Positions 2,671 through 59,335 of a DNA stretch of 64,000 nucleotides are shown piece by piece (the first letter of the stretch is position 1; the number at the start of each line of letters is the position of its first letter). The position numbers and the translations under genes were made by a program. Below the pieces are notes generated by a model. It was not told the origin of the DNA. It did not search any database and saw only the letters and a program-made list of their open reading frames with translations. The stretch comes from Eledone cirrhosa. Taxonomy: Eukaryota. The stretch spans positions 207,266,001-207,330,000 of the forward strand of contig OZ024741.1 in the NCBI GenBank assembly GCA_964016885.1, written 5' to 3'.

Positions 2671-3833
2671 ATAGCGGCGATAGACGAGGTTTCACAAGAT
2701 GAGGCTTCGATAGACGAGCCTGCGATAAACGCGACTTTGATAGACGAAGCTGTCATAGACGAGGCTATGATGGACAAGGCTACGATAGACAAGGCTACGA
2801 TAGACAAGGCTACGATAGACCAGGCTGTAAAAGACGAGGCTGCGATATATAAAGCTGGGATACACGTGGTTGCGACAAACCAGGCTACGATAGACCAGGC
2901 TGCGATAGACAAGGCTGCGAAAGACGAGGCTGCGATAGACGAGGCTGTGATAGGCGTGGCTGCGATATACCAGGCTACGATAGACCAGGCTGCGATAGAC
3001 GAGGCTGTGATAGACGTGGCTCGATATACCAAGCTACGATAGACGAGGCTGCGATAGACAAGTCTGTGATAGATGTGGCTGCGCTAGACCAGGTTACGAT
3101 AGACCAGGTTACGATAGACGAGGCTACGATAGACGAGGCTGCGATATACAAAGCTGGGATAGACGTGGCTGCGATAGAGGAGGTTGTGATAGATAAGACT
3201 GCGATGGATGAGGCTATGATAGACAAGGGTGAGATAGATGAGGATACGATAGAGCATGTTGCGATAGACGAAGCTACGATAGATAAGACTGCGATAGATG
3301 AGGCTGTGGTGAATGAGGTTGTAATAGATGAGCCTGTAATAGATGAGCCTGCGATAGTTGAGCCTGTAATAGATGAGCCTGCGATAGACGAGGCTACGAT
3401 AGACGAGGCTACGATATACGAAGCTTCACAAAATAAGGCTGCGATAGACAGGCCACGATAGGTGAGGCTACGATAGACGGGGCTGTGATAGACAAGGTTG
3501 CGATAGACGAAGCTACGATAAACCAGGCTGCGATAAACAAGGCTGCGATAGACGAAGCTGCGATAGACGAGGTTGCGATAGACGAGACTTCGATAGACCA
3601 GGCTGCGATAGGTGTGGCTGTGATAGATGAGGCTGCGATAGACCACTCTGCAATAGACCAGGCTGCGATGGACCAGGCTGCGATGGACCAGGCTGTGATA
3701 GACAAAGCTATGATAGATGAATCTGCGATAGACCTGGCTGCGATAGATGAGGCTATGATAGATGAGTCTGCGATAGATCAGGCTGTGATAGATGAGGCTG
3801 CGTTGTATAGAGCTTGGATGGACGAGGCTGTAA
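2671..3833. repeat. 15-bp minisatellite, consensus GACGAGGCTGCGATA (reads DEAAI on + strand), about 75 diverged units
   Basis: Tandem units directly visible. The + strand ORFs 2737-3042, 3066-3461 and 3485-3847 are separated by frame shifts near 3021 and 3455. Confidence 0.95.
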
Positions 3834-3849
3834 CAGGCAACACCTGATC

Positions 3850-10364: not shown

Positions 10365-10437
<73 letters not shown>

Positions 10438-10486
10438 GTGTATGTATATGTATGTATGTGTGGATGAAGGTATGTGTGTATATATA
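9850..10486. repeat. Compound (TA)n/(TG)n microsatellite
   Basis: Directly visible; explains the spurious YI/CV ORFs. Confidence 0.97.
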
Positions 10487-10846: not shown

Positions 10847-10985
10847 TTATACCCTTTATTATTTCCTTACCTTATAAAATTATATGTTTTTTCACAAAAA
10901 AGTATTCTGTCTCTTATATATTCCATGTGCCATTACCAACCTCAATTTTCTCTCTCTCTATATATATATATAAATATATATATAT

Positions 10986-11472
10986 AAGTGTGTATGTATA
11001 TGTACACACATATATGTATACAGACGTACAGTAGTATGTATATATATATATACATACATGCACACATATATATATATATGTACGTATGGGTTTACCGAAC
11101 ATTTATTATAATGTTCGGTTTGTTTGTGAACAAACAAACAGCCCGAATTACGCCGTACATATATATATATGTATATGTGTATGTATATGTATGTATGTGT
11201 GGATGAAGGTATGTGTGTATATATCGTCGCCCTTTTGTTCAACACTGACGCAGGAACGATGTACTAGTTTTAAGCTTATTAGGTATCGTCAGCATCGTAT
11301 ACCTTTCTGCCAGATGATTGAACGTCTGAAAGTATATACTTTCCTTATGCATCTTAACGGCTGAGCAGCCTAATTTGCATATCGAGTGTGTTAGTCGGCC
11401 GGGCGCACCGAAAACGATAAATGGAAACGAATGAAACGAAATTTCATTTCTCACTCTTAGTACGGCTGATAC
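10986..11472 (-). mobile_element. ORF-less HHR-bearing element (retrozyme-like or solo pLTR); same family as 58604-59248
   Basis: Flanked by (TA)n on both sides, closely similar to 58604-59248, HHR at 11256-11298. Confidence 0.7.
11256..11298 (-). ncRNA. Minimal type I HHR (GAAA mutated to AAAA in this copy)
   Basis: ACGATG-CTGACGA-stem II-AAAA-CTAG-TA^-CATCGT. Sister copies keep GAAA. Confidence 0.65.
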
Positions 11473-15448: not shown

Positions 15449-17655
15449 ACAATATATTAACAAATGGAAACTATATTTATAAAACCATATTTATTTCATT
15501 ATACATATTTCAAGGACACCAAAGCAAATTATGGTGCGCTTTCATCAGATAAAATACAAAATTTGTTTTATAAATAATGACATACCCATGGAGATCACAC
15601 CTTAACGGTCCGAAGATTCGCTGGATAGTGGGGACTTATTAGGGGTAATAGAAAGTTATGTGTGGATATGCAAATGAATTTATGAAAAGTTGAAAAAACA
15701 ACCGTTTATTTAAATTACGCTGGGGGAGGATGAGAAGATAGAGAGAGCGAAAAATTACTGTTATAAGATATATAGAAAAATAGAGGGAAGAGAGATTTTC
15801 TCAGTTTTTTCAAGATTTTCTATATTATTCTTAAGGCCTTTAAGATATTCATGGCCTGCGAAATGGTTTTTCTTGAATTTGATGTTTTGTATAATTGATA
15901 TTATTTCATTCTCAAATTCCATTAATAGTTTGTTGTTAGGTGGATTTTTCTTGGATCTAAAGATCATATCGAGGTTGGATTTATTTGCATTTTCATCTGA
16001 TTTTCTATCGAATAATTTCGACATCACCATGGGGTCATCAGACTTGGCGCAAATAACGGATATTGTGATGATATTTATTAATAATATATTACATAGAAAA
16101 CTACCGGAGATGACCGGTGGTTTATATCGTGATGATATGCTGCTTTTAATTGAAAATAATAGTAATTGCGAAATAAATAGAAAAAGAAAATCAATAATAC
16201 AATTTTTTAATAGCTACAATCTTAAGTTAGAAATAGAGAATAACTACAAACTTGTTAACTTTTTAGACGTAACATTAAACCTTAATACAGGGCTCTACTA
16301 TCCATTCCATAAAATTAATGAGAACTTAAACTATGTAAGCTTCAACCCAATCATCCTAAATCTATTAAGAACACTATAGTAAATTCTGTACAACAACGTA
16401 TTTCTCGAATCTCTGAGAATAAAAACATATTTGACGATAAGGCAGAATATTATAATGAAGCTTTAAGTAGAGCAGGCTATACAAATAAAATTAAATACAT
16501 CGAAAACAATGATAAGACAAATAACCATAATATTAACTATAATTATAATAAGAAACCTAACATAAACTCGAATACTAATAGAAAGAATAGAACTAGAAAC
16601 ATAATTTGGTATGCACCTCCATTTTCACTAAGTATTAAAACACGTTTAGCTAAACTATTTTTTAAAGCTCTAGATAAATGCTTTCCCAAAACCCATAGAT
16701 ACCATTCAATCTTTAACAGACGTACAATAAAACTATCTTACTCTACTACTATGAACTTAGCACAAAATATAAATAGAATCAATAATAGAAATCTAAACCA
16801 AAATAACACTAATACCTCTAGCAATATCCAACTTAATAATACTGTTCCGAATAACATAAACTCTGCTAAATGTAATTGTAGAATTAAACCAAACTGTCCT
16901 TTAAAGAATAAATGCTTACATAAAAATGTCGTCTATAAATGCTCTGTCAAAACTAATGATCATACATTCAACTATATAGGTTCTACTTCTACAGACTTCA
17001 AATTCCGTTTCAATAATCCTGTTTAATAATATTGGTAAAAAATCTTCGACTTCTCTATCAAACTTGATATGGAACATAAAATCTAAGAATATAGACTATT
17101 CTTTAACTTGGGATGTGATCTCAAAAGCACCTGCCTACAATAACACAGCTTTATCTAGATTTTGCAAATTGTGTGTTGAGGAAATTTTCTTCATACTTAA
17201 ATGTAAGAATTCAATTAATATACGTATGAATTTATTCAGTTCTTGTAAACATCGCCTAAATTCAACATTTAAAAATATATATAAAATCTAATTACACTTA
17301 TAATTTTTTCTACATATTGTTCGATATATTCAAATGCCTATAATTTTCACTCATTAAAATTTCTTATATTATATACATATATGATCATAAATCTTTAATT
17401 TTAATTTTTTATATTTTTATATTTTTATATTTTTATATTTTTATATTAAAATTTCTTATATTATATACATATATGATCATAAATTTTTATAAATTTTTAT
17501 AAATTTTTATGAATTTTTAATTTTAACTTTAATTTTGATTTTAATATTTTTACTTATTTTTACTTATTAAATCTTTATCCTTTACTGCTTAATATTTTTA
17601 CATCTTTATTCTTTACTGCTTAAATTTTTCACTTTTTATTTTTACTTCCAAAATA
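15449..17655. mobile_element. PLE of the GLYRDD/IIWYxPPFS type (Nematis-like, inferred) with 5' inversion: minus-strand pLTR + RT N-terminus (15449-16020), plus-strand RT/GIY-YIG (16020-17291)
   Basis: DITMGSSDLAQITD, GGLYRDD, VNFLDVTLNL, RNIIWYAPPFS, CNC...CPL..KC..KNVVYKC, YIGST, CKLCVEE, CKHR. Confidence 0.88.
15492..15556 (-). ncRNA. Type I HHR in pLTR
   Basis: TATTTTAT-CTGATGA-AAGCGCACC..GGTGTCCTT-GAAA-T-ATGT-A-TA^-ATGAAATA. Confidence 0.8.
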
Positions 17656-17915: not shown

Positions 17916-18406
17916 ATAAAATATTAAACAAATAATGAATAAACAATTCCTTATATTAAACAAAAAAAGTTCATTATTTAACGATCGTTTCTAGGGTATA
18001 TATGTGTTATAACTGGTATGCATATTCAACAGATCTATGTACAAAATTATACAAAATTATACAAATTATCAAGATTAAATATACATGTGTTATATGTGTT
18101 AGGTATGTATATTTAATCTTGATAATTTGTATAATTTTGTATAATTTTGTACATAGATCTGTTGAATATGCATACCAGTTATAACACATATATACCCTAG
18201 AAACGATCGTTAAATAATGAACTTTTTTTGTTTAATATAAGGAATTGTTTATTCATTATTTGTTTAATATTTTATCTTGACTCTGTATACCGTTTATCTT
18301 TCACCGAAAGTGGATTTTCATTACATCTCTTCTTTCCATGATATCCGGAATACATTGAGTTCTTCATACGGATTGGACACTACCGTAAACTCTTGGTAGA
18401 TTTATC

Positions 18407-40899: not shown

Positions 40900-41297
40900 T
40901 TTATTTATTCATTTCATCTCAATTGTTAAGTTAACTCAACAAGATATGACTTAGTGTTTTTCGTTCTCTCTCATTTTTTCGTCTCCTCTCTCTCTCCGTG
41001 TTTCTCTCTCTGTTTATTCTGCTCTCTCTCTTTACTTCTCTATCTTTCTATTTCTCCGTAACCCAACGGCTTATTTTTAAAATATCCAATACTAATAATT
41101 AACGCTATAACTCCACTATCCGGGAGCTTCCAACAGTAATGGTTGCATTCTTTAAGGGTATGTCAATATTTATTTATAAAACTGATCTATATTATATTTT
41201 ATCTGATGAAAGCACACCATAATTTAACTTGGTGTCCTTGAAATATGTATAATGAAATAAATATGGTTTTATAAATATAGTTTCCATTCGTTAATAT

Positions 41298-41344: not shown

Positions 41345-41411
41345 AAGGTTTAGCAAATAATGAAAAAGTTTCAAAATAAATTTTAAAAAATTGACTTTAC
41401 CTACTATAGTT

Positions 41412-41494
41412 ACCTTTACCGATCAGTTTCGAATCCCAAAAATAAACGGAGGCCATACGGCCTTCGTTGCAAAGAAAGATTCTCGTCAGAAGGT
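41412..41494 (-). ncRNA. Type I HHR
   Basis: ACCTT-CTGACGA-GAATC..GATTC-GAAA-CT-GATC-GG-TA^-AAGGT. Confidence 0.82.
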
Positions 41495-41679
41495 TCTTTT
41501 CATTCGAAGAATATAAAATTCTTGAATTCAAATTACGAACTAGCGCTATCCAAAACTGTTCCCGAGATGAGAGTGAATGAAGTGGAATCAACTTCATTCA
41601 CTCTCATCTCGGGAACAGTTTTGGATAGCGCTAGTTCGTAATTTGAATTCAAGAATTTTATATTCTTCGAATGAAAAGA

Positions 41680-41762
41680 ACCTTCTGACGAGAATCTATC
41701 TTTGCAAAGAAGGCCGTATGGCCTCCGTTTATTTTTGGGATTCGAAACCGATCGTTAAAGGT
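41680..41762 (+). ncRNA. Type I HHR (mirror copy, one stem III mismatch)
   Basis: ACCTT-CTGACGA-GAATC..GATTC-GAAA-CC-GATC-GT-TA-AAGGT. Confidence 0.7.
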
Positions 41763-41942
41763 AACTATAGTAGGTAAAGTCAATTTTTTAAAATTTATTT
41801 TGAAACTTTTTCATTATTTGCTAAACCTTGTTTATATATGTTCTGGCTCGTTAATTTATTAACCTGCCATTGAACCACATTGGCATTTGGTTGGACAATA
41901 CATGCGTCCCTTAACGCCTTGTGCGTGAAGGAACACATATCC

Positions 41943-42940: not shown

Positions 42941-45900
42941 AGTAGGAGGTGAGTAATATTATAGAACAATAAAACTATGTGTATATCAGATAAGTAGCAC
43001 TCAACAGTTGGTATAACTGGAGTATATATAAAGAAGAAATTAAAAGATGGTTAAAAAAGTTCCATATATTTTATTATGCGCATTATCCTGGGACAAACAT
43101 TGTGTTCTCATCAGATAAAATAAGGTAACATGATATGAGGCCTAAAAACACTTGTGAACGAGAAAGTGTCCAATCTACATATGACAAAAATATAAGAGAA
43201 GAGAAAATAATAGGAAAAAATGAAGAAAAGAAAAGAAGGAAAAAGGAAAAAGAAATAGAAGAGAGGGAAAAGAAAGAAAGAAGGAGGAGAGTGAAGGAGA
43301 AAGAGAGAGAGACTTTTGATCGGGAACGCTGTAAAAAAAATGAAAACAGCCGTAAATAACGGCTAAAAAAATAAATAAATAAATTGATGAGGTGTATGTG
43401 CTAATATTACAAATATTAGAGGTCTAGAATATAGAAACTGGGTATATTATTTTATATTGAGTTTCAATACTAAAAATGGGATTAAAAAGTGTAAAAATGT
43501 ATTAATAAAATGAAATATAATAAAATTAAATTAAATTAAAAATAAATATAATAATTATAAAAAAAGGTTTTTAAAATAAAATAAAATAAAATAAAATAAG
43601 ATAGAATGGAATAAAAAATAAAAATGAGAATAGTCTACCTATGTCAAAATTAAAAATTACTATTAAAAATTTATATATTTGGGGGTATACTATTTAATTA
43701 TTATTTTATATCAACAAGTAAATAATCGGAAATTGCTAGAAAGGTTTATAAACGTAGAAAGACATATGACGTCATAGTTTGTTTACAAAATCTACGAAGG
43801 TTTGAACAGAATTTAAGGCAATAGAGGAAAAAGGTGAAAGGCTTAAAAATGCAAAGAAAAGAGAATTAATACATTGTAGAATATAATGAAATATGTGAGA
43901 CTCTTTAAATCGGAAAATTCCTCAAATTCGCGGTGGAATATATCGTGATCATGCTCATTTTACTGTCTTAAATTGTAACAAAGTAAACTTTAATATTATT
44001 AAGAAAAATATACTTGAACTATTTAAGCATCTTAATTTAAAAATTGAATTCGTGAATAATGATAAATTAGCAAATTTCCTTGATATCCCTTAACCTAGAT
44101 ACTGGCCTATATTACCCATACCATAAGGATAATGAGAACCTAAATTATGTTAACTTTAAATCAAACCACCCTAATAATGTTAAAACTGCTATAGTCAGAA
44201 GTGTTGAAAATAGTATTTCTAATTTATCCTCTAATAGACATATCTTCGATGCTAACGCCAACTATTATAATAATGCGTTATCTAGGGCTGGATACACTAA
44301 GGAAACTAATCTTGGCAGAACTTATAGTAATAAAGCTAGTAATAAGCATACCAGTAACATAAGGGGGTGACCTAGATATAAAAATATCCTTTGGTAGAAC
44401 ACTCCCTTCTCTCTTTCACTTATTAGTAATATCCCTAAATTATTTTTTAGGGCTTTAGATAACAGCTTCCTCCCTTCACATATATATAGCAAGATTTTTA
44501 ATAAGCATACCATTAAATTCTCATATTCCACTACTTCCAACATTTCTAAAATTATCTCAAGACATAATTCTAAAATATTAAATAATAACTCATATGCATC
44601 CAACCATGAGAGTCATAATAATAACACTATAAGGCCCGACGTCAATGTAAACTCTAGCCAAAATAACATAAATATAAATACAACATCAAACGTAATTTTG
44701 AGGAATGCTTCAAATAGTAATGTAAATCAGGAAACCTTAGCACCTCCTTTAGCTAATTCCACCACTCCAGTTCCTAATATAAATAATCCTGAGCCACTTG
44801 CAAATAACTCTGTTAATAATCTTAATCGTAAATGAAACTGCCCTATTAGAACTAATTGTCCTCTTAGTAATTTCTGTCTCGATAAAAACCTAATATACGA
44901 ATGTAAAGTGGTAACTAGTACCAATACCAATACCTACATTGGCTCTACTTCTACTTCTTTTAAAGCAATACTCTATAACCATTCTTCTACGTTTAAATAT
45001 CCACTTAAAAGAACCAGCACCGCACACTCAGAACTTATTTGGTCCGTAAAAGACAAAAACATTAATTACGAAATTTCTTGGCGTAAAATTTGCAACGCTT
45101 TTCCTTATTCCGATGCTTCCATATTTAGGGTTTGTAATTTATGTCTAGCTGAAAAATTTACCATTATCTCGAATTTCAACTCTTTAATAAATAGACGTAC
45201 AGACTTATTTGGTCGTTGAATTCATAAATCTTTTAAGACCTTTCACAAAGTATACAGCTAATGTCCTATAACATATTCCACGGATAACGGTTAATTTTTT
45301 TACACATATAAATTTTTTACACATATATCTTTTCACACATTTTTTCTCACATATTTCATTATATTCTACAATGTATTAATTCTCTTTTCTCTGCATTTTT
45401 AAGCCTTTCACCCTTTTTCCTCTATTGCCTTAAATTCTGTTCAAACCTTCGTAGATTTTGTAAACAAACTATGACGCCATGTGTCTTTCTACGTTTATAA
45501 ACCTTTCTAGCAATTTTCTTTATTTACTTGTTGATATAAAATAATAATTAAATAGTATACCCCACATATATACATTTTTAATAGTAATTTTTAATTTTGA
45601 CATAGGTAGACTATTCTTATTTTTATTTTTTATTCTATTCTATATTATTTTATTTTATTTTATTTTAAAAACCTATTTTTATAATTATTATAATTATTTT
45701 TAATTTTATTTAATTTTATTATATTTTATTTTATTAATACATTTTTACACTTCTTAATCCAACTTTTAGCATTCAAACTCAATATAAAATAATATACCCA
45801 GTTTCTATATTCGAGACCTCTAATATTTCTAATACTAGCACATACACCTCATCAATTTATTTTTTTTTTTAGCCGTTATTTACAACTGTTTTCATTTTTT

Positions 45901-46233
45901 TGCGTTCCCAATCAAAAGTCTCTCTCTCTCTATCTCTCTCTCTCTTTCGCTTTCTCTCTCCTCCTTCTTTCTTTCTTTTTCCTCTCTTCTATTTCTTTTT
46001 CCTTTTTTTTCCTTCTTCTTTCCTTTTCTTCATTTTTCCTATTTTTTTCTCTTCTCTTATATTTTTGTCATATGTAGACTGGACACTTTCTCGTTCACAA
46101 ATGTTTTTAGGCCTCATATCATGTTACCGTATTTTATCTGATGAGAACACAATTTTTGTCCCAGGATGATGTTGTTTTCGAAATGCGCATAATAAAATAT
46201 ATGGAACTTTTTTAACCATCTTTTAATTTCTTC

Positions 46234-46483: not shown

Positions 46484-47227
46484 TTGAGTTAAGAACTCAA
46501 GGTAATCCCTTACAATTAAATAGCTCTCAGAAAAAAGCAGTACAATATAATTGAATAAACAAGAGAGATGAACACTAATATAAACATACATGTGTTCGAA
46601 TCGTAAGGACTAAAATTTGCTAGTGTGAAAAAATACTAGTTTTAGTCCTTACAATTCGAACACATGTATGTTTATATTAGTGTTCATCTCTCTTGTTTAT
46701 TCAATTATATTGTACGTCTCGGAAAAGCTTTTTTCTTAGAGCTATTTAATTGTAAGGGACTACCCTGAGTTCTTAACTCAATATATATTTGTCGGCTCCA
46801 TCATGTAGAGCTAATTTTTATTGTCCTGTCAGCCAGGCTGCTATTTTTAGTCGCAGGGAATTTTGAGACAAGCTGGGTTCCAAATGACACGTGCGATAAT
46901 TCATATCGTACACAATTCATTCTCTAATATTTTTAGAAGTGAAAGGTTCACTAATTTCTCAACAACTACTGAGGAGCAGAGAAACGTGAAAACTTCACTT
47001 AATAAGATGTTGCGAAACAGTCTCCAACACTGTTTAGTTGTTACCAGGCATTTTTGCCCAATATAGGTTTGTTATATTTCTTTATTTTTCTTAATTTAAT
47101 ATTTAAAGTTAAAGATAACAAACTATATTGCTGTAGTTAGTATTTTTTCACCCTAGCAAATTTTAGTCCTTACGATTCGAACACATGTATGTTTATATTA
47201 GTGTTCATCTCTCTTGTTTATTCAATT

Positions 47228-52415: not shown

Positions 52416-52620
52416 ATAATAATAAATTTGAAGACTAAAATCCAAAGAGGGCTCGATAAGGATAAATATATATCAGATATATAAGAACCGTAGAGCAAAT
52501 ATTTATTAAAATAACAGATTAAAGTTTAAGCAAAGAATCGCTGCTTTCACCCTTAACCCTTCAGAAGTGTGAAAGCAGCGATTCTTTGCTTAAACTTTAA
52601 TCTGTTATTTTAATAAATAT
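52411..52620 (-). mobile_element. Family F fold-back copy
   Basis: Matches 19960-20102; inverted arm 52569-52620; apex in HHR stem II. Confidence 0.8.
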
Positions 52621-55510: not shown

Positions 55511-55577
55511 ATATATATATATATATGTATATATACAATATATTAATAAATGGAAACTATATTTATAAAACCATAAT

Positions 55578-55643
55578 TATTTTATTATATATATTTCAAG
55601 GGCGACCAAGGTAAATTATGGTGCGCTTTCATCAGATAAAATA
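55578..55643 (-). ncRNA. Type I HHR
   Basis: TATTTTAT-CTGATGA-AAGCGCACC..GGTCGCCCTT-GAAA-T-ATAT-A-TA^-ATAAAATA. Confidence 0.82.
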
Positions 55644-57806
55644 CTGATTTTTTTATAAATAAATATTGACATACCCGGAAATAAGACAACCTCAACGGTT
55701 GGAAGTCGCTGGATAGTGGAGATAATTGAGGGTGATACAAAGTTGTGAGTGAGTATGCAAATGAGTGTCAGAAAAATTTAAAAATACAACGGTTTATTTA
55801 AATTAAACTGTTGGAAGAAAATAGATGTAAAAGGGAGAGAGACAAAAAATTGAGAGGGAGAGAGAAAATTGAAAGGGAGAGAGATAGATAGAAAAAATAT
55901 ATTGAAAGGGAGGGAGATAGAATAGTGAGATGGGAGAGAGAAGAGAATAGAAAGAGAAACAGAGGGATAGAAGAAAAAGAGAAAAGATATAATATTGAGA
56001 AAGAGTGAAGGAAAGAACAAATATTGAGATGGAGAGAGAAAGGAAAAAGTATTGAGAGGGAGAGAGAAAAGAATATTGAAAAAAATTGAAAAAGAAAGAG
56101 GGAGAAAGAGTGTGAGAGGGAGAAAGAGAAAGAGAAAGAGGGGCGAAGTGAGCGAAGAAATAAATTTTATATAGATGAGTAGTAAGAATGTAAATATATT
56201 CATTATGTTAAGTTTATATTATTTATAAAGGTAAAGTTAAAAAATTAAATTAATGATAAAAAATCTTTACAAAAGAATTTGGTTATAATTTAGTTAAAAA
56301 TTTAACCAGAAATTTAATTAAAATTTAATTAGAATTTAATTAAAATTTAATTAATTACAATAAGATATATTACAAAGAGAAGTATTTTAAATTTTATTAA
56401 GATGTATTAATACTATATAGGTTTAGATGGTTATTTTATGTTATAGGTTATTTTATGTTATAGGTTATTTGAATGTATAGTATTTTGCATTGGAAAAAAA
56501 ACAAGTATAGTTTAATTGATTAAAGTAAGTTTGGCAAAATTATATTTAGCCATAGTTTATTCATAGTTGTAAGTCAAATCTTAAACGTCAAATATTTATG
56601 AAGATTTACGAGAGTTTAGAAAGGAAAAATTATTTAATTAGAAATATATATTAAAACAATTTACAATTTCGACTATAAATTAAGACTATAAAGATTGAGA
56701 TTATAAAAAACAATAAGGAAGTTTAAAGGAAGTTAAAAGGGATTTTTTTAGAACCCAAATGACTCCAAGGATAGATAAAAATCACTACGAAAGTTATAAG
56801 AAATTATAAAAATTCATCTTAAAATATAATTAAAATATAAGACATATTCACATATATATAAATAATATAAATGATTGGATAGATATGAAAATACATAAGT
56901 ATTAAACATGTTTAGAATATTGGAAGATGTAGGGGTAATGAAAGATGGGAAAATAGTGGTTTTTCGTATCTTTCAAAAGAACCTTTCAAAAACTTAATCA
57001 TAAGTTTTACAAAAATTTCCAGGAGGTGTTTCGAAGGAAATTTTTAGAATTTTTCAAAACATTTTTATAAAAGAATTTTTAGAGGTAGGATTGAAAGGTA
57101 CGATAATATATTAGAAAGTAAAGGTTTTAAGGAGTAAATTAAAATTAATAAGTGTACATTATATATAAGGTTACAATTATATTGATATATATAATCTGAT
57201 ATATATTGATATATATAATCTGATATAATTGATATATATAATCTGAGGGAAGAGATTATAGGTGTTTGGATGTAGAAAACGTTATGTAAGGAAGAATGAT
57301 CATATATTACATTTTATATATTTTTTCCAATGTTCTTTTCTCTCTCCCTCTCAATACTTTTTCCTTTCTCTCTCCATCTCAATATTTGTTCTTTCCTTCA
57401 CTCTTTCTCAATATTATATCTTTTCTCTTTTTTCTTCTATCTCTCTGTTTCTTTTTCTATTCTCTTCTCTCTCCCATCTCACTATTCCATCTCCCTCCCT
57501 TTCAATATATTTTTTCTCTCTATCTCCCTCCCTTTCAATATATTTTTCTCACTATCTCTCTCCCTTTCAATTTTCTCTCTTTATCTCTCTCCCTCTCAAT
57601 TTTTTGTCTCTCTCCCTTTTACATCTATTTTCTTCCAACAGTTTAATTTAAATAAACCGTTGTATTTTTAAATTTTTCTGACACTCATTTGCATACTCAC
57701 TCACAACTTTGTATCACCCTCAATTATCTCCACTATCCAGCGACTTTCAACCGTTGAGGTTGTCTTTTTTCCGGGTATGTCAATATTTATTTATAAAAAT
57801 AATCTT

Positions 57807-57872
57807 TATTTTATCTGATGAAAGCGCACCATAATTTAATTTGGTCGCCCTTGAAATATATTTAATAAAATA
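57807..57872 (+). ncRNA. Type I HHR (mirror copy, stem III mismatch)
   Basis: As 55578, but GAAA-T-ATAT-T-TA. Confidence 0.7.
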
Positions 57873-58003
57873 ATTATGGTTTTATAAATATAGTTTCAAT
57901 TTATTAATATATTGTATATTTACTCCACTAATTTGTTGAGTGCTTTATATCAGTTATAAAAAGTTTTAAGCTTGTTGAATCCCAACAAATTAAATATAAC
58001 CTC

Positions 58004-58269: not shown

Positions 58270-58603
<334 letters not shown>

Positions 58604-58612
<9 letters not shown>

Positions 58613-59248
58613 ACGTACATACATATATGTATACAGACGTACAGTAGTATGTATATATATATAGATACATGCACACATATATATATATGTACGTATGGGT
58701 TTACCGAACATTTATTATAATGTTCGGTTTGTTTGTAAACAAACAGCCCGAATTACGCCGTACAGTGTTTGGCAACCATCGTTGCCCTGTTGTTCAACAC
58801 TGACAAAGGAACGATGAACTAGTTTCAAGCTTATTAGCTTTCGTTAACATCGTATACCTTCCTGTCAGATGATTGAACGTTTTTAAAGTATATACTTTCC
58901 TTATGCATATTAACGGCTGAGCAGCAGGTATACGATGCTAACGATAGCTAATAAGCTTGAAACTAGTTCATCGTTCCTTTGTTAGTGTTGAACAAAAGGG
59001 CAACGATGGTTGCCGAACACTGTACGGCGTAATTCGGGCTGTTTGTTTACAAACAAACCGAACATTATAATAAATGTTCGGTAAACCCATACGTACATAT
59101 ATATATATATATATATGTGTGCATGTATGTATATATATACATACTACTGTACGTCTGTATACATATATGTATGTACGTATACATACTTATATTTAGAGTA
59201 CCAGCCGTACTAAGAGTGAGAAATGAAATTTCGTTTCATTCTTTTCCA
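58604..59248. mobile_element. Fold-back copy of the 10986-11472 element (arms about 58604-58858 / 58926-59186) with a permuted tail; mutated HHRs at 58811-58853 (-) and 58932-58974 (+)
   Basis: Palindrome visible. Tail 59202-59240 equals the opposite end of the 10986-11472 unit. Confidence 0.82.
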
Positions 59249-59335
59249 TATATATATATATATATTTATTTATTTATATAGACAAAAATATACCTATTTT
59301 TCTTCAAAGTCCCGACTGCAGTTTCGCGGAATCAC

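What the first reader, a model, noticed from the sequence alone, without database searches (positions are those of the whole stretch)
58604..59248. Third small HHR family shows circular permutation between two copies 47 kb apart
Seen: the copy at 10986-11472 (-) begins with cagccgtactaagagtgagaaatgaaatttcg, while in the plus arm here that same sequence follows the unit end (59202-59240). The unit is roughly 430 nt with no ORF. The three HHR copies carry core lesions (AAAA for GAAA, CTAACGA, TTAACGA) but combine to a canonical consensus: ACGATG-CTGACGA-AAGCT.AATA.AGCTT-GAAA-CTAG-TH^-CATCGT.
Basis: partly seen in the sequence, partly recalled or inferred. Interest (0 to 1): 0.7.

Follow-up and report, generated by a model that had tools for sequence, protein, structure and literature searches.

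The report
Hammerhead mini-retroelement with Penelope-type ends
This is a very abundant, roughly 440-base non-coding repeat with a hammerhead ribozyme motif that is intact in most sequencing reads, and it is likely a passenger of Penelope-like jumping genes whose known copying habits would explain the swapped order, so it is probably a new member of the known animal 'retrozyme' class and not a new kind of element.

Summary
A 56-nt head (53/56 identical) opens copy 1 at 11472 (-) but follows the unit end at 59198-59253. Copy 1's 3' end also carries the same junction letters, so it is one exact turn of a ~444-nt unit. The 58604-59253 locus is a head-to-head palindrome of two 5'-truncated copies plus that extension. 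The family is large (25,903 reads in one run; 4,274, 1,639 and 8 contigs in three others). Reads confirm an intact type I hammerhead core: G5 in 96-99.8%, cleavage triplet mostly GUA. Two corrections: the two arms share rare lesions, so there are two independent sequences, not three; and stem II most likely closes with a U.U mismatch. An inverted truncated copy plus an optional 'tail' is the published insertion signature of Penelope-like elements (PLEs), so the swapped order does not by itself show a circular RNA. Best reading: a non-autonomous, PLE-copied non-LTR retrozyme, likely in an octopod. Head-to-tail arrays, expression, cleavage and circles were not tested; the reads tool skipped the junction. 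Verdict: new member of a known kind.

The parts
10956..11472 (-). Copy 1: one full turn of the unit (head, middle, hammerhead, 3' hairpin region, junction letters with expanded dinucleotide runs)
11417..11472 (-). Head segment of copy 1 (hairpin); same sequence as the extension at 59198-59253
   Evidence: 53/56, E 1.6e-19
11373..11380 (-). ATGCAAAT octamer (name recalled), about 80 nt upstream of the hammerhead core; also in the loose-end consensus of contigs from three runs
   Evidence: table 7; function untested
11256..11298 (-). Type I hammerhead motif, copy 1; CTGACGA intact, G12A lesion at 11271, triplet GUA
11159..11224 (-). 66-nt insertion in copy 1, identical to 10420-10485 nearby, replacing 13 nt of the unit
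58604..58925 (-). Inverted, 5'-truncated arm (middle, hammerhead, 3' region), ending in a long (TA)n run
58811..58853 (-). Hammerhead motif, minus arm; C3U, G5A, U at 17
58926..59186 (+). Direct, 5'-truncated arm (hammerhead, 3' hairpin region); joined head-to-head to the minus arm at a short microhomology (58925/58926)
58932..58974 (+). Hammerhead motif, plus arm: helix I 6 bp, helix II 4 bp with U.U at its base, helix III 2 bp with palindromic ACTAGT; G5A at 58940, U17 at 58968
   Evidence: read majority G and A at these places
59187..59197 (+). AT-rich junction between unit end and head; also present, with dinucleotide expansions, at the 3' end of copy 1
   Evidence: pattern found 2 times in the window, at 59186 (+) and 10988 (-)
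59198..59253 (+). About 55-nt extension equal to the unit head (the PLE-type 'tail'), ending in a (TA)n run

Best explanation
This is a high-copy, ~444-nt non-coding repeat with a canonical type I hammerhead motif, likely a non-autonomous element (non-LTR retrozyme type) copied in trans by a Penelope-like reverse transcriptase from an RNA that would run across the unit junction into the next head. Shown: the unit, the seamless end-to-head junction, the conserved core, the head-to-head palindrome, ends in (TA)n. Inferred from PLE biology: the enzyme nicks AT-rich DNA and starts reverse transcription at either of two sites about 55-65 nt apart, giving copies that end at the unit end (copy 1, minus arm) or one head further (plus arm). 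5' truncation of a copy that began at the further site makes it look permuted. A template switch at a microhomology adds the inverted arm from the same molecule. I favour, narrowly, an uncleaved linear read-through RNA from a tandem or part-tandem parent as template. The short palindromic helix III predicts cleavage mainly as a dimer (inferred).
For: Architecture matches the published PLE pattern: inverted 5'-truncated copy, optional tail at one end, (TA)n targets. Two internal RT start sites, AT-rich targets and no need for hammerhead cleavage were shown for an Anolis PLE in vitro. Both arms carry G5A and U17; chance for an independent second copy about 0.002 from read shares, so one inactive-core template was copied twice. 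Seven joint rows in three of the four runs (X1, X24, X4) join the reversed middle to the forward 3' part at other breakpoints, i.e. further head-to-head junctions (tables 5, 5c). All 4 ends lie within 15 nt of a (TA)4+ run, against 8.9% of the window (the two 3' ends are partly the unit's own TA-rich sequence). Core-to-3'-end distance 243-248 nt, against 246-284 nt for three PLE terminal repeats in the window. Helix sizes equal the 'canonical' metazoan hammerhead, not the PLE minimal type; a U.U base of helix II occurs in an active axolotl retrozyme. G5 in 12,258 of 12,565 reads and 99.8% and 96.2% of contig depth in two other runs. Helix I variants at 58935/58971 are all pairing-compatible (A-U, G.U, U.G), unphased. 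PLE-type ORFs are abundant in the window.
Against: No autonomous partner found: the unit has no similarity to any PLE end in the window down to E 5. No full head-to-tail array seen; 59084-59258 was skipped by the reads tool, so the junction rests on one locus plus copy 1's end. The tail (55-65 nt) is longer than the 30-40 bp reported for PLEs. Copy 1 is one exact turn, which a circle predicts at least as well. No target-site duplication can be read in (TA)n flanks. The extra head-to-head joints have short sides and come from an 82% likeness setting, so some may be false. In X24, 745 loose ends upstream of the middle give a different, mixed consensus (agreement 0.53), so a second upstream form may exist.
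Confidence: 0.55

Rival explanations
1. Same element and same PLE helper, but the template is a ribozyme-made circular monomer. Reverse transcription started at either site runs round the circle; one full turn gives copy 1, a truncated run from the further site gives the plus arm.
For: Copy 1 begins where it ends, within a few bases (junction pattern at 2 places in the window, both in this family; 182 TA-tract ends examined as background; pattern defined after seeing the plus arm). Core conserved in runs labelled as three organisms. No copy starts at the cleavage site, and thousands of reads cross it. The unit folds strongly (z -6.3 for both stretches; partly from TA-rich self-complementary parts). 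Coral, mussel and axolotl retrozymes form circles, and RT on circles is the proposed route.
Against: The template of both arms had G5A, which should block its own core (a dimer partner could still cut it). Cleavage was not needed for insertion in the one PLE tested in vitro. Only two or three 3' end positions are seen, as expected from fixed start sites on either topology. Reverse transcription of retrozyme circles is proposed, not shown, in the passages read.
Confidence: 0.28
2. The sequences are end pieces (pLTR plus tail) of an unseen coding PLE family. The palindrome is an ordinary truncated insertion, and copy 1 is an internally deleted derivative that joins the start of the body to the 3' repeat.
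For: The 58604-59253 layout is the textbook truncated PLE insertion. Paired hammerheads on opposite strands 100-700 bp apart were described for truncated PLEs. About 20 nt between head and middle are seen in copy 1 only. The mixed upstream loose ends in X24 could be a coding parent. Earlier scan notes reached this reading in other genomes (unchecked).
Against: Helix geometry is the canonical retrozyme type, while the window's PLE repeats have the longer helix II with an unpaired 5' base. Contig loose ends in X1 (68), X4 (51) and X5 (2) continue into copy-1-type sequence for 30 nt. Copy 1 would need both a large deletion and a 5' end exactly at the junction.
Confidence: 0.12
3. The swap and palindrome come from DNA-level rearrangement or assembly error in microsatellite-rich sequence.
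For: Copy 1 holds a 66-nt exact duplicate of nearby DNA and looks mosaic (13/156 differences from the arms in its 5' part, 0/76 in its 3' part, Fisher p 0.006). At most 19 of 616 reads over 58925 can carry the locus letter, so the exact palindrome joint is not confirmed in reads.
Against: The arms differ at 4 of 82 positions in the hammerhead region, unlike a fold-back artefact. The junction letters occur independently at both loci. A single-locus joint is not expected to be common in a reduced-representation library of another sample.
Confidence: 0.05

Closest known systems
Animal non-LTR retrozymes (Cervera and de la Pena 2020, PMC7229834; Li, Clavereau and Pollet 2026, 10.64898/2026.07.22.740005)
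   Same: Non-coding unit of 150-450 bp, GC under 50% (here 444 nt, 37.5%), canonical type I hammerhead with short palindromic helix III, U.U at the base of helix II as in axolotl HHR_Amex2, high copy number, co-occurrence with PLEs, dispersed monomers.
   Different: No tandem of two complete hammerhead units seen here; expression, cleavage and circles untested; no PLE with a related pLTR found; head-to-head palindrome and tail were not described for retrozymes in the parts I read.
Endonuclease-bearing Penelope-like element insertions (Arkhipova 2013, PMC3846280; Craig 2021, PMC8557442; Frangieh 2024, PMC11167929)
   Same: Inverted 5'-truncated copy head-to-head with a direct copy, optional extension at one end, AT-rich or (TA)n targets, hammerhead about 250 nt from the 3' end.
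   Different: No RT or GIY-YIG ORF; tail 55-65 nt against 30-40 bp; canonical and not minimal hammerhead.
Non-autonomous Chlamys PLEs such as MRC1 (passage in PMC8557442)
   Same: Non-coding PLE passengers that form pLTR-like and head-to-tail insertions.
   Different: Green algae; those share 3' similarity with autonomous families, which was not found here.
Newt satellite 2 (passages in PMC7229834; promoter type recalled, not found)
   Same: Small hammerhead repeat with dimer-type helix III; I recall an snRNA-type promoter with an octamer, and an octamer lies in this unit.
   Different: Satellite 2 is mainly in tandem arrays and is shown to be transcribed; neither is shown here.

Membership tests
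Type I hammerhead ribozyme | Core CUGANGA ... GAAA ... NUH with three helices, helix I open | tested here: met
   Each window copy has one or two lesions, but read majority restores G5 (96-99.8%) and A17 (60-93%); no variant row shown for other core positions except N7 (18 rows not shown). Helices I and II form in the MFE of the plus arm.
Type I hammerhead ribozyme | Rfam hammerhead model match | tested here: not met
   No hammerhead family among hits at E up to 1 (window) or up to 10 (two loci); the copies searched carry core lesions.
Type I hammerhead ribozyme | Self-cleavage | not testable with these tools
   Needs in vitro transcription.
Non-LTR retrozyme | Non-coding unit of 150-450 bp, low GC, no LTR/PBS/PPT | tested here: met
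   444 nt, 37.5% GC, no coding ORF, no tRNA gene.
Non-LTR retrozyme | Multi-copy | tested here: met
   25,903 reads of 12,467,656 read in X24; 4,274, 1,639 and 8 contigs in X1, X4, X5. No copy number can be derived.
Non-LTR retrozyme | Head-to-tail tandem units, each with a hammerhead | tested here: inconclusive
   One end-to-head junction with 55 nt of the next unit; no full dimer in 64 kb; junction region skipped.
Non-LTR retrozyme | Expressed as linear and circular RNA | not testable with these tools
   No RNA holder was listed, which says nothing either way.
Penelope-like element (autonomous) | ORF with RT and GIY-YIG endonuclease | tested here: not met
   No such ORF in the unit. Neighbouring PLE-type elements are separate: one abuts copy 1 through a TA run but its sister copy ends in plain (TA)n; the other lies about 160 nt away in the opposite orientation to the tail.
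PLE-type insertion (non-autonomous) | Inverted 5'-truncated copy and optional tail | tested here: met
   58604-58925 inverted arm; 59198-59253 extension; further head-to-head joints in 7 rows.
PLE-type insertion (non-autonomous) | Sequence similarity to the pLTR of an autonomous family | tested here: inconclusive
   None within this window; whole genome not available.
PLE-type insertion (non-autonomous) | Target-site duplication | tested here: inconclusive
   Flanks are (TA)n runs, where a duplication cannot be read.

The most novel reading that the evidence does not exclude
A cephalopod retrozyme family with its own snRNA-type (octamer) promoter whose ribozyme-made RNA circle is the template for a Penelope-like reverse transcriptase, leaving exact one-turn monomers, tails and palindromes in the genome. 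This would be genomic evidence joining the retrozyme circle model to the PLE two-start-site mechanism.
Probability: 0.2. Interest if true: 0.6.

Novelty: new member of a known kind. Interest (0 to 1): 0.3.

Why it matters
How animal retrozymes are copied back into DNA is proposed but not shown. A family that bears the full PLE insertion signature (tail, inverted arm, TA target) supports PLE mobilisation, and the spread of its 5' and 3' ends across an assembled genome would test circle against linear template at little cost. I found no paper on cephalopod hammerhead repeats (searches; listings only, subscription journals and one key supplement not seen). The class itself, and each structural feature, is already described, so the surprise is modest.

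Tried and rejected
No whole genome is held, so no genome-wide consensus or array search. Exact motif scans found nothing in metagenome contigs, viral contigs (22, 29) or genome contigs (30). No RNA holder listed among 24 runs; not evidence on expression. Of 24 runs listed, 4 were laid; the reads tool skipped 59084-59258 as repeat, so tail, junction and head have no read data. Rfam gave only microsatellite-driven miRNA hits and weak chance hits. MITE/foldback transposon rejected: the head lies outside the inverted arms and copy 1 is a single unit. tRNA-derived SINE not supported: no tRNA gene by ARAGORN or Rfam. 'Always attached to a coding PLE' rejected for the PLEs in this window. Pfam did not hit the GIY-YIG-like stretch of the PLE-type element beside copy 1 (0 of 2; also 0); its PLE label rests on a weak RVT_1 hit, homologues, a motif match and its terminal repeat with hammerhead. 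A paper for the recalled newt snRNA-type promoter was not found. Earlier-findings look-ups by sequence and by place returned nothing. The supplement of PMC7229834 could not be read and may list cephalopod families; one of the supplement files of PMC4209133 was not searched.

Full report
Setting. The window is eukaryotic repeat-rich DNA; no whole genome is held. An RT frame next to copy 1 has 105 homologues, 14 of them named as Octopus vulgaris proteins; 13 of these 14 are 66-84% identical over short stretches, whereas near-full-length hits reach 53% at most. The host is therefore likely an octopod (inference). The window holds several decayed PLE-type elements (RVT_1 weak hits and one Pfam GIY-YIG hit; five GIY-YIG-like motifs) and several other hammerhead-like families.

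Observation. The segment at 59198-59253 (+) matches 11472-11417 (-) at 53 of 56 bases, E 1.6e-19, and has no third copy in the window. In copy 1 the order is head, middle, hammerhead, 3' region; in the plus arm it is hammerhead, 3' region, 11-nt junction, head. The unit is 444 nt, 37.5% GC, without a coding frame or tRNA gene. The finding's span is a head-to-head palindrome: a minus arm 58925 to 58604 and a plus arm from 58926, joined where the reversed middle resembles the normal sequence before the hammerhead.

After collapsing dinucleotide runs, the 3' end of copy 1 reads like the plus-arm junction. The pattern occurs at 2 places in the window, 59186 (+) and 10988 (-), against a background of 182 TA-tract ends (the pattern was defined from the plus arm). 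Copy 1 thus runs 11472 to about 10956 and is one turn of a unit whose end and head join without a gap.

Hammerhead. The three lesions are as stated. I laid 4 of the 24 listed runs on 58858-59258 at 82% likeness: 25,903 reads in X24 and 4,274, 1,639 and 8 contigs in X1, X4 and X5 (X24 and X1 share an organism label; X4 and X5 have two other labels). G5 is present in 12,258 of 12,565 reads and in 99.8% and 96.2% of contig depth in X1 and X4; position 17 is A in 14,351 of 15,483 reads, 88.4% and 59.7%. So the family core is intact with a GUA triplet, and the first refutation condition is not met. Variants in the helix I pair 58935/58971 are A-U, G.U or U.G compatible and their shares move together between runs, but they are not phased. 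Two corrections follow. Both arms carry G5A and U17, a combination expected about 0.002 of the time in an independent copy, so they come from one template. The base of helix II is T in copy 1 and the plus arm, no other letter is listed at 58945 in the 40 rows shown (18 not shown), and its partner 58958 is T in most reads, so the base is likely U.U. Helix I of 6 bp, helix II of 4 bp and a 2-bp helix III with a palindromic loop are the 'canonical' metazoan geometry that is thought to cleave as a dimer (PMC4209133, part 1 of 4 and passages). A U.U base occurs in axolotl HHR_Amex2, which cleaves weakly alone and well as a dimer (PMC7229834, parts 2 and 3 of 6 and passages). Rfam did not detect the lesioned copies.

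Relation to coding PLEs. Copy 1 follows the 3' end of a PLE-type element through a short TA run, but that element's sister ends in plain (TA)n and its 5' repeat is followed by its own body; the element right of the palindrome is about 160 nt away across a (TA)n run and opposite to the tail. The unit shares no sequence with these ends. The second refutation condition is not met for the PLEs seen here; an unseen parent is not excluded.

What the swap means. PLE insertions often have an inverted 5'-truncated copy at the 5' end and a 30-40 bp tail at either end (PMC8557442, passages); the tail sits optionally at the 3' end of one inverted repeat and head-to-head is the usual form (PMC3846280, passages). 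For an Anolis PLE in vitro, reverse transcription starts at two internal sites that bracket the tail, targets are AT-rich, and hammerhead mutants insert normally (PMC11167929, parts 1 and 2 of 4). The locus fits this in each respect but tail length (55-65 nt). All 4 ends lie beside (TA)n (background 8.9%), core-to-end distances equal those of the window's PLE repeats, and 7 joint rows in three runs show other head-to-head breakpoints, beside 6,549 X24 reads in the 14 listed rows of ordinary middle-to-hammerhead continuity. These 7 rows have short sides and may include false joints. [quoted passage not shown]

Mechanism and rivals. Shown: unit, junction, core conservation, palindrome, TA flanks. 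Inferred: transcription across the junction, PLE enzyme in trans, two start sites, template switch for the inverted arm. The template must span the junction; whether it is a linear read-through RNA (0.55) or a ribozyme-made circle (0.28) is open. The shared G5A and the in vitro data lean to linear; the exact one-turn monomer and the conserved core lean to circle. A coding parent with this pLTR (0.12) is kept because about 20 nt of the head-to-middle link is seen in copy 1 alone and 745 X24 loose ends give a different mixed upstream consensus, although contigs in X1, X4 and X5 continue as copy 1 does. Artefact (0.05) is kept because copy 1 holds a 66-nt duplicate of nearby DNA and looks mosaic.

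Limits. The reads tool skipped 59084-59258, so arrays and junction frequency are untested; five motif scans of public collections were empty; no RNA run was listed.

Promoter lead. ATGCAAAT occurs 5 times in the window (5.5 expected), but 4 lie upstream of hammerhead cores, in this family and in one other (three copies of it). A rough, after-the-fact chance for 2 of 4 small families is 0.001. I recall an snRNA-type promoter in newt satellite 2 but could not find the paper. Untested.

Novelty. Searches (listings) showed no paper on cephalopod hammerhead repeats; a 2026 Octopus vulgaris repeat annotation has no occurrence of 'ribozyme' or 'hammerhead' in its main text and lists 31 recently active Penelope-like families (PMC13282606, passages). 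The supplement of PMC7229834 could not be read and may bear on this. Retrozyme-like repeats are known from mussels and many other invertebrates. Verdict: a real, well-spotted new member of a known kind; interest 0.3.

Noticed in passing
window 11159-11224 and 10420-10485: Copy 1 holds a 66-nt insertion identical to a microsatellite-rich stretch about 700 bp away, at the point where its similarity to the arms changes from about 8% divergence to 0 of 76 differences; templated insertion, chimeric copy or assembly join.
   Followed up: partly
window 11373-11380; 15668-15675, 55755-55762, 57687-57694: An ATGCAAAT octamer lies 80-130 nt upstream of the hammerhead core in two unrelated small hammerhead families, in opposite orientation to the ribozyme strand; possible snRNA-type promoter.
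   Followed up: partly
window 11469 and 11364 (-): An 8-nt motif (TCAGCCGT, then TAAGA within a few bases) occurs twice in the unit, at the head start and just behind the octamer, where the minus arm begins.
   Followed up: no
window 15462-15730, 41108-41288, 55545-55850, 57599-57905; 43040-43263, 45984-46226; 46640-47221: Three other small hammerhead families; the first two have palindromic helix III and sit partly as inverted pairs, the last has a terminal direct repeat (46640-46700 and 47161-47221).
   Followed up: partly
window 11769 (-), 29193 (+), 55404 (-), 59656 (-): Hammerhead cores in the terminal repeats of two PLE-type families with asparagine-rich ORF inserts (about 12-15 kb, 25-29 kb, 60-63 kb).
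   Followed up: partly
window 17931-18260, 41350-41824, 46490-46775, 52511-52608: Several other near-perfect palindromes of 100-475 bp; possibly further PLE-type inverted insertions.
   Followed up: no
window 58270-58603: A very long (TA)n run with TG interruptions flanks the minus arm.
   Followed up: no
loose ends at 58925 in run X24: 745 reads continue upstream of the middle with an A/T-rich consensus unlike copy 1 (agreement 0.53); may mark a second form or a coding parent.
   Followed up: no
window 2673-3840: A GC-richer tandem repeat with a 15-nt period and open frames of 200-318 aa, not examined.
   Followed up: no
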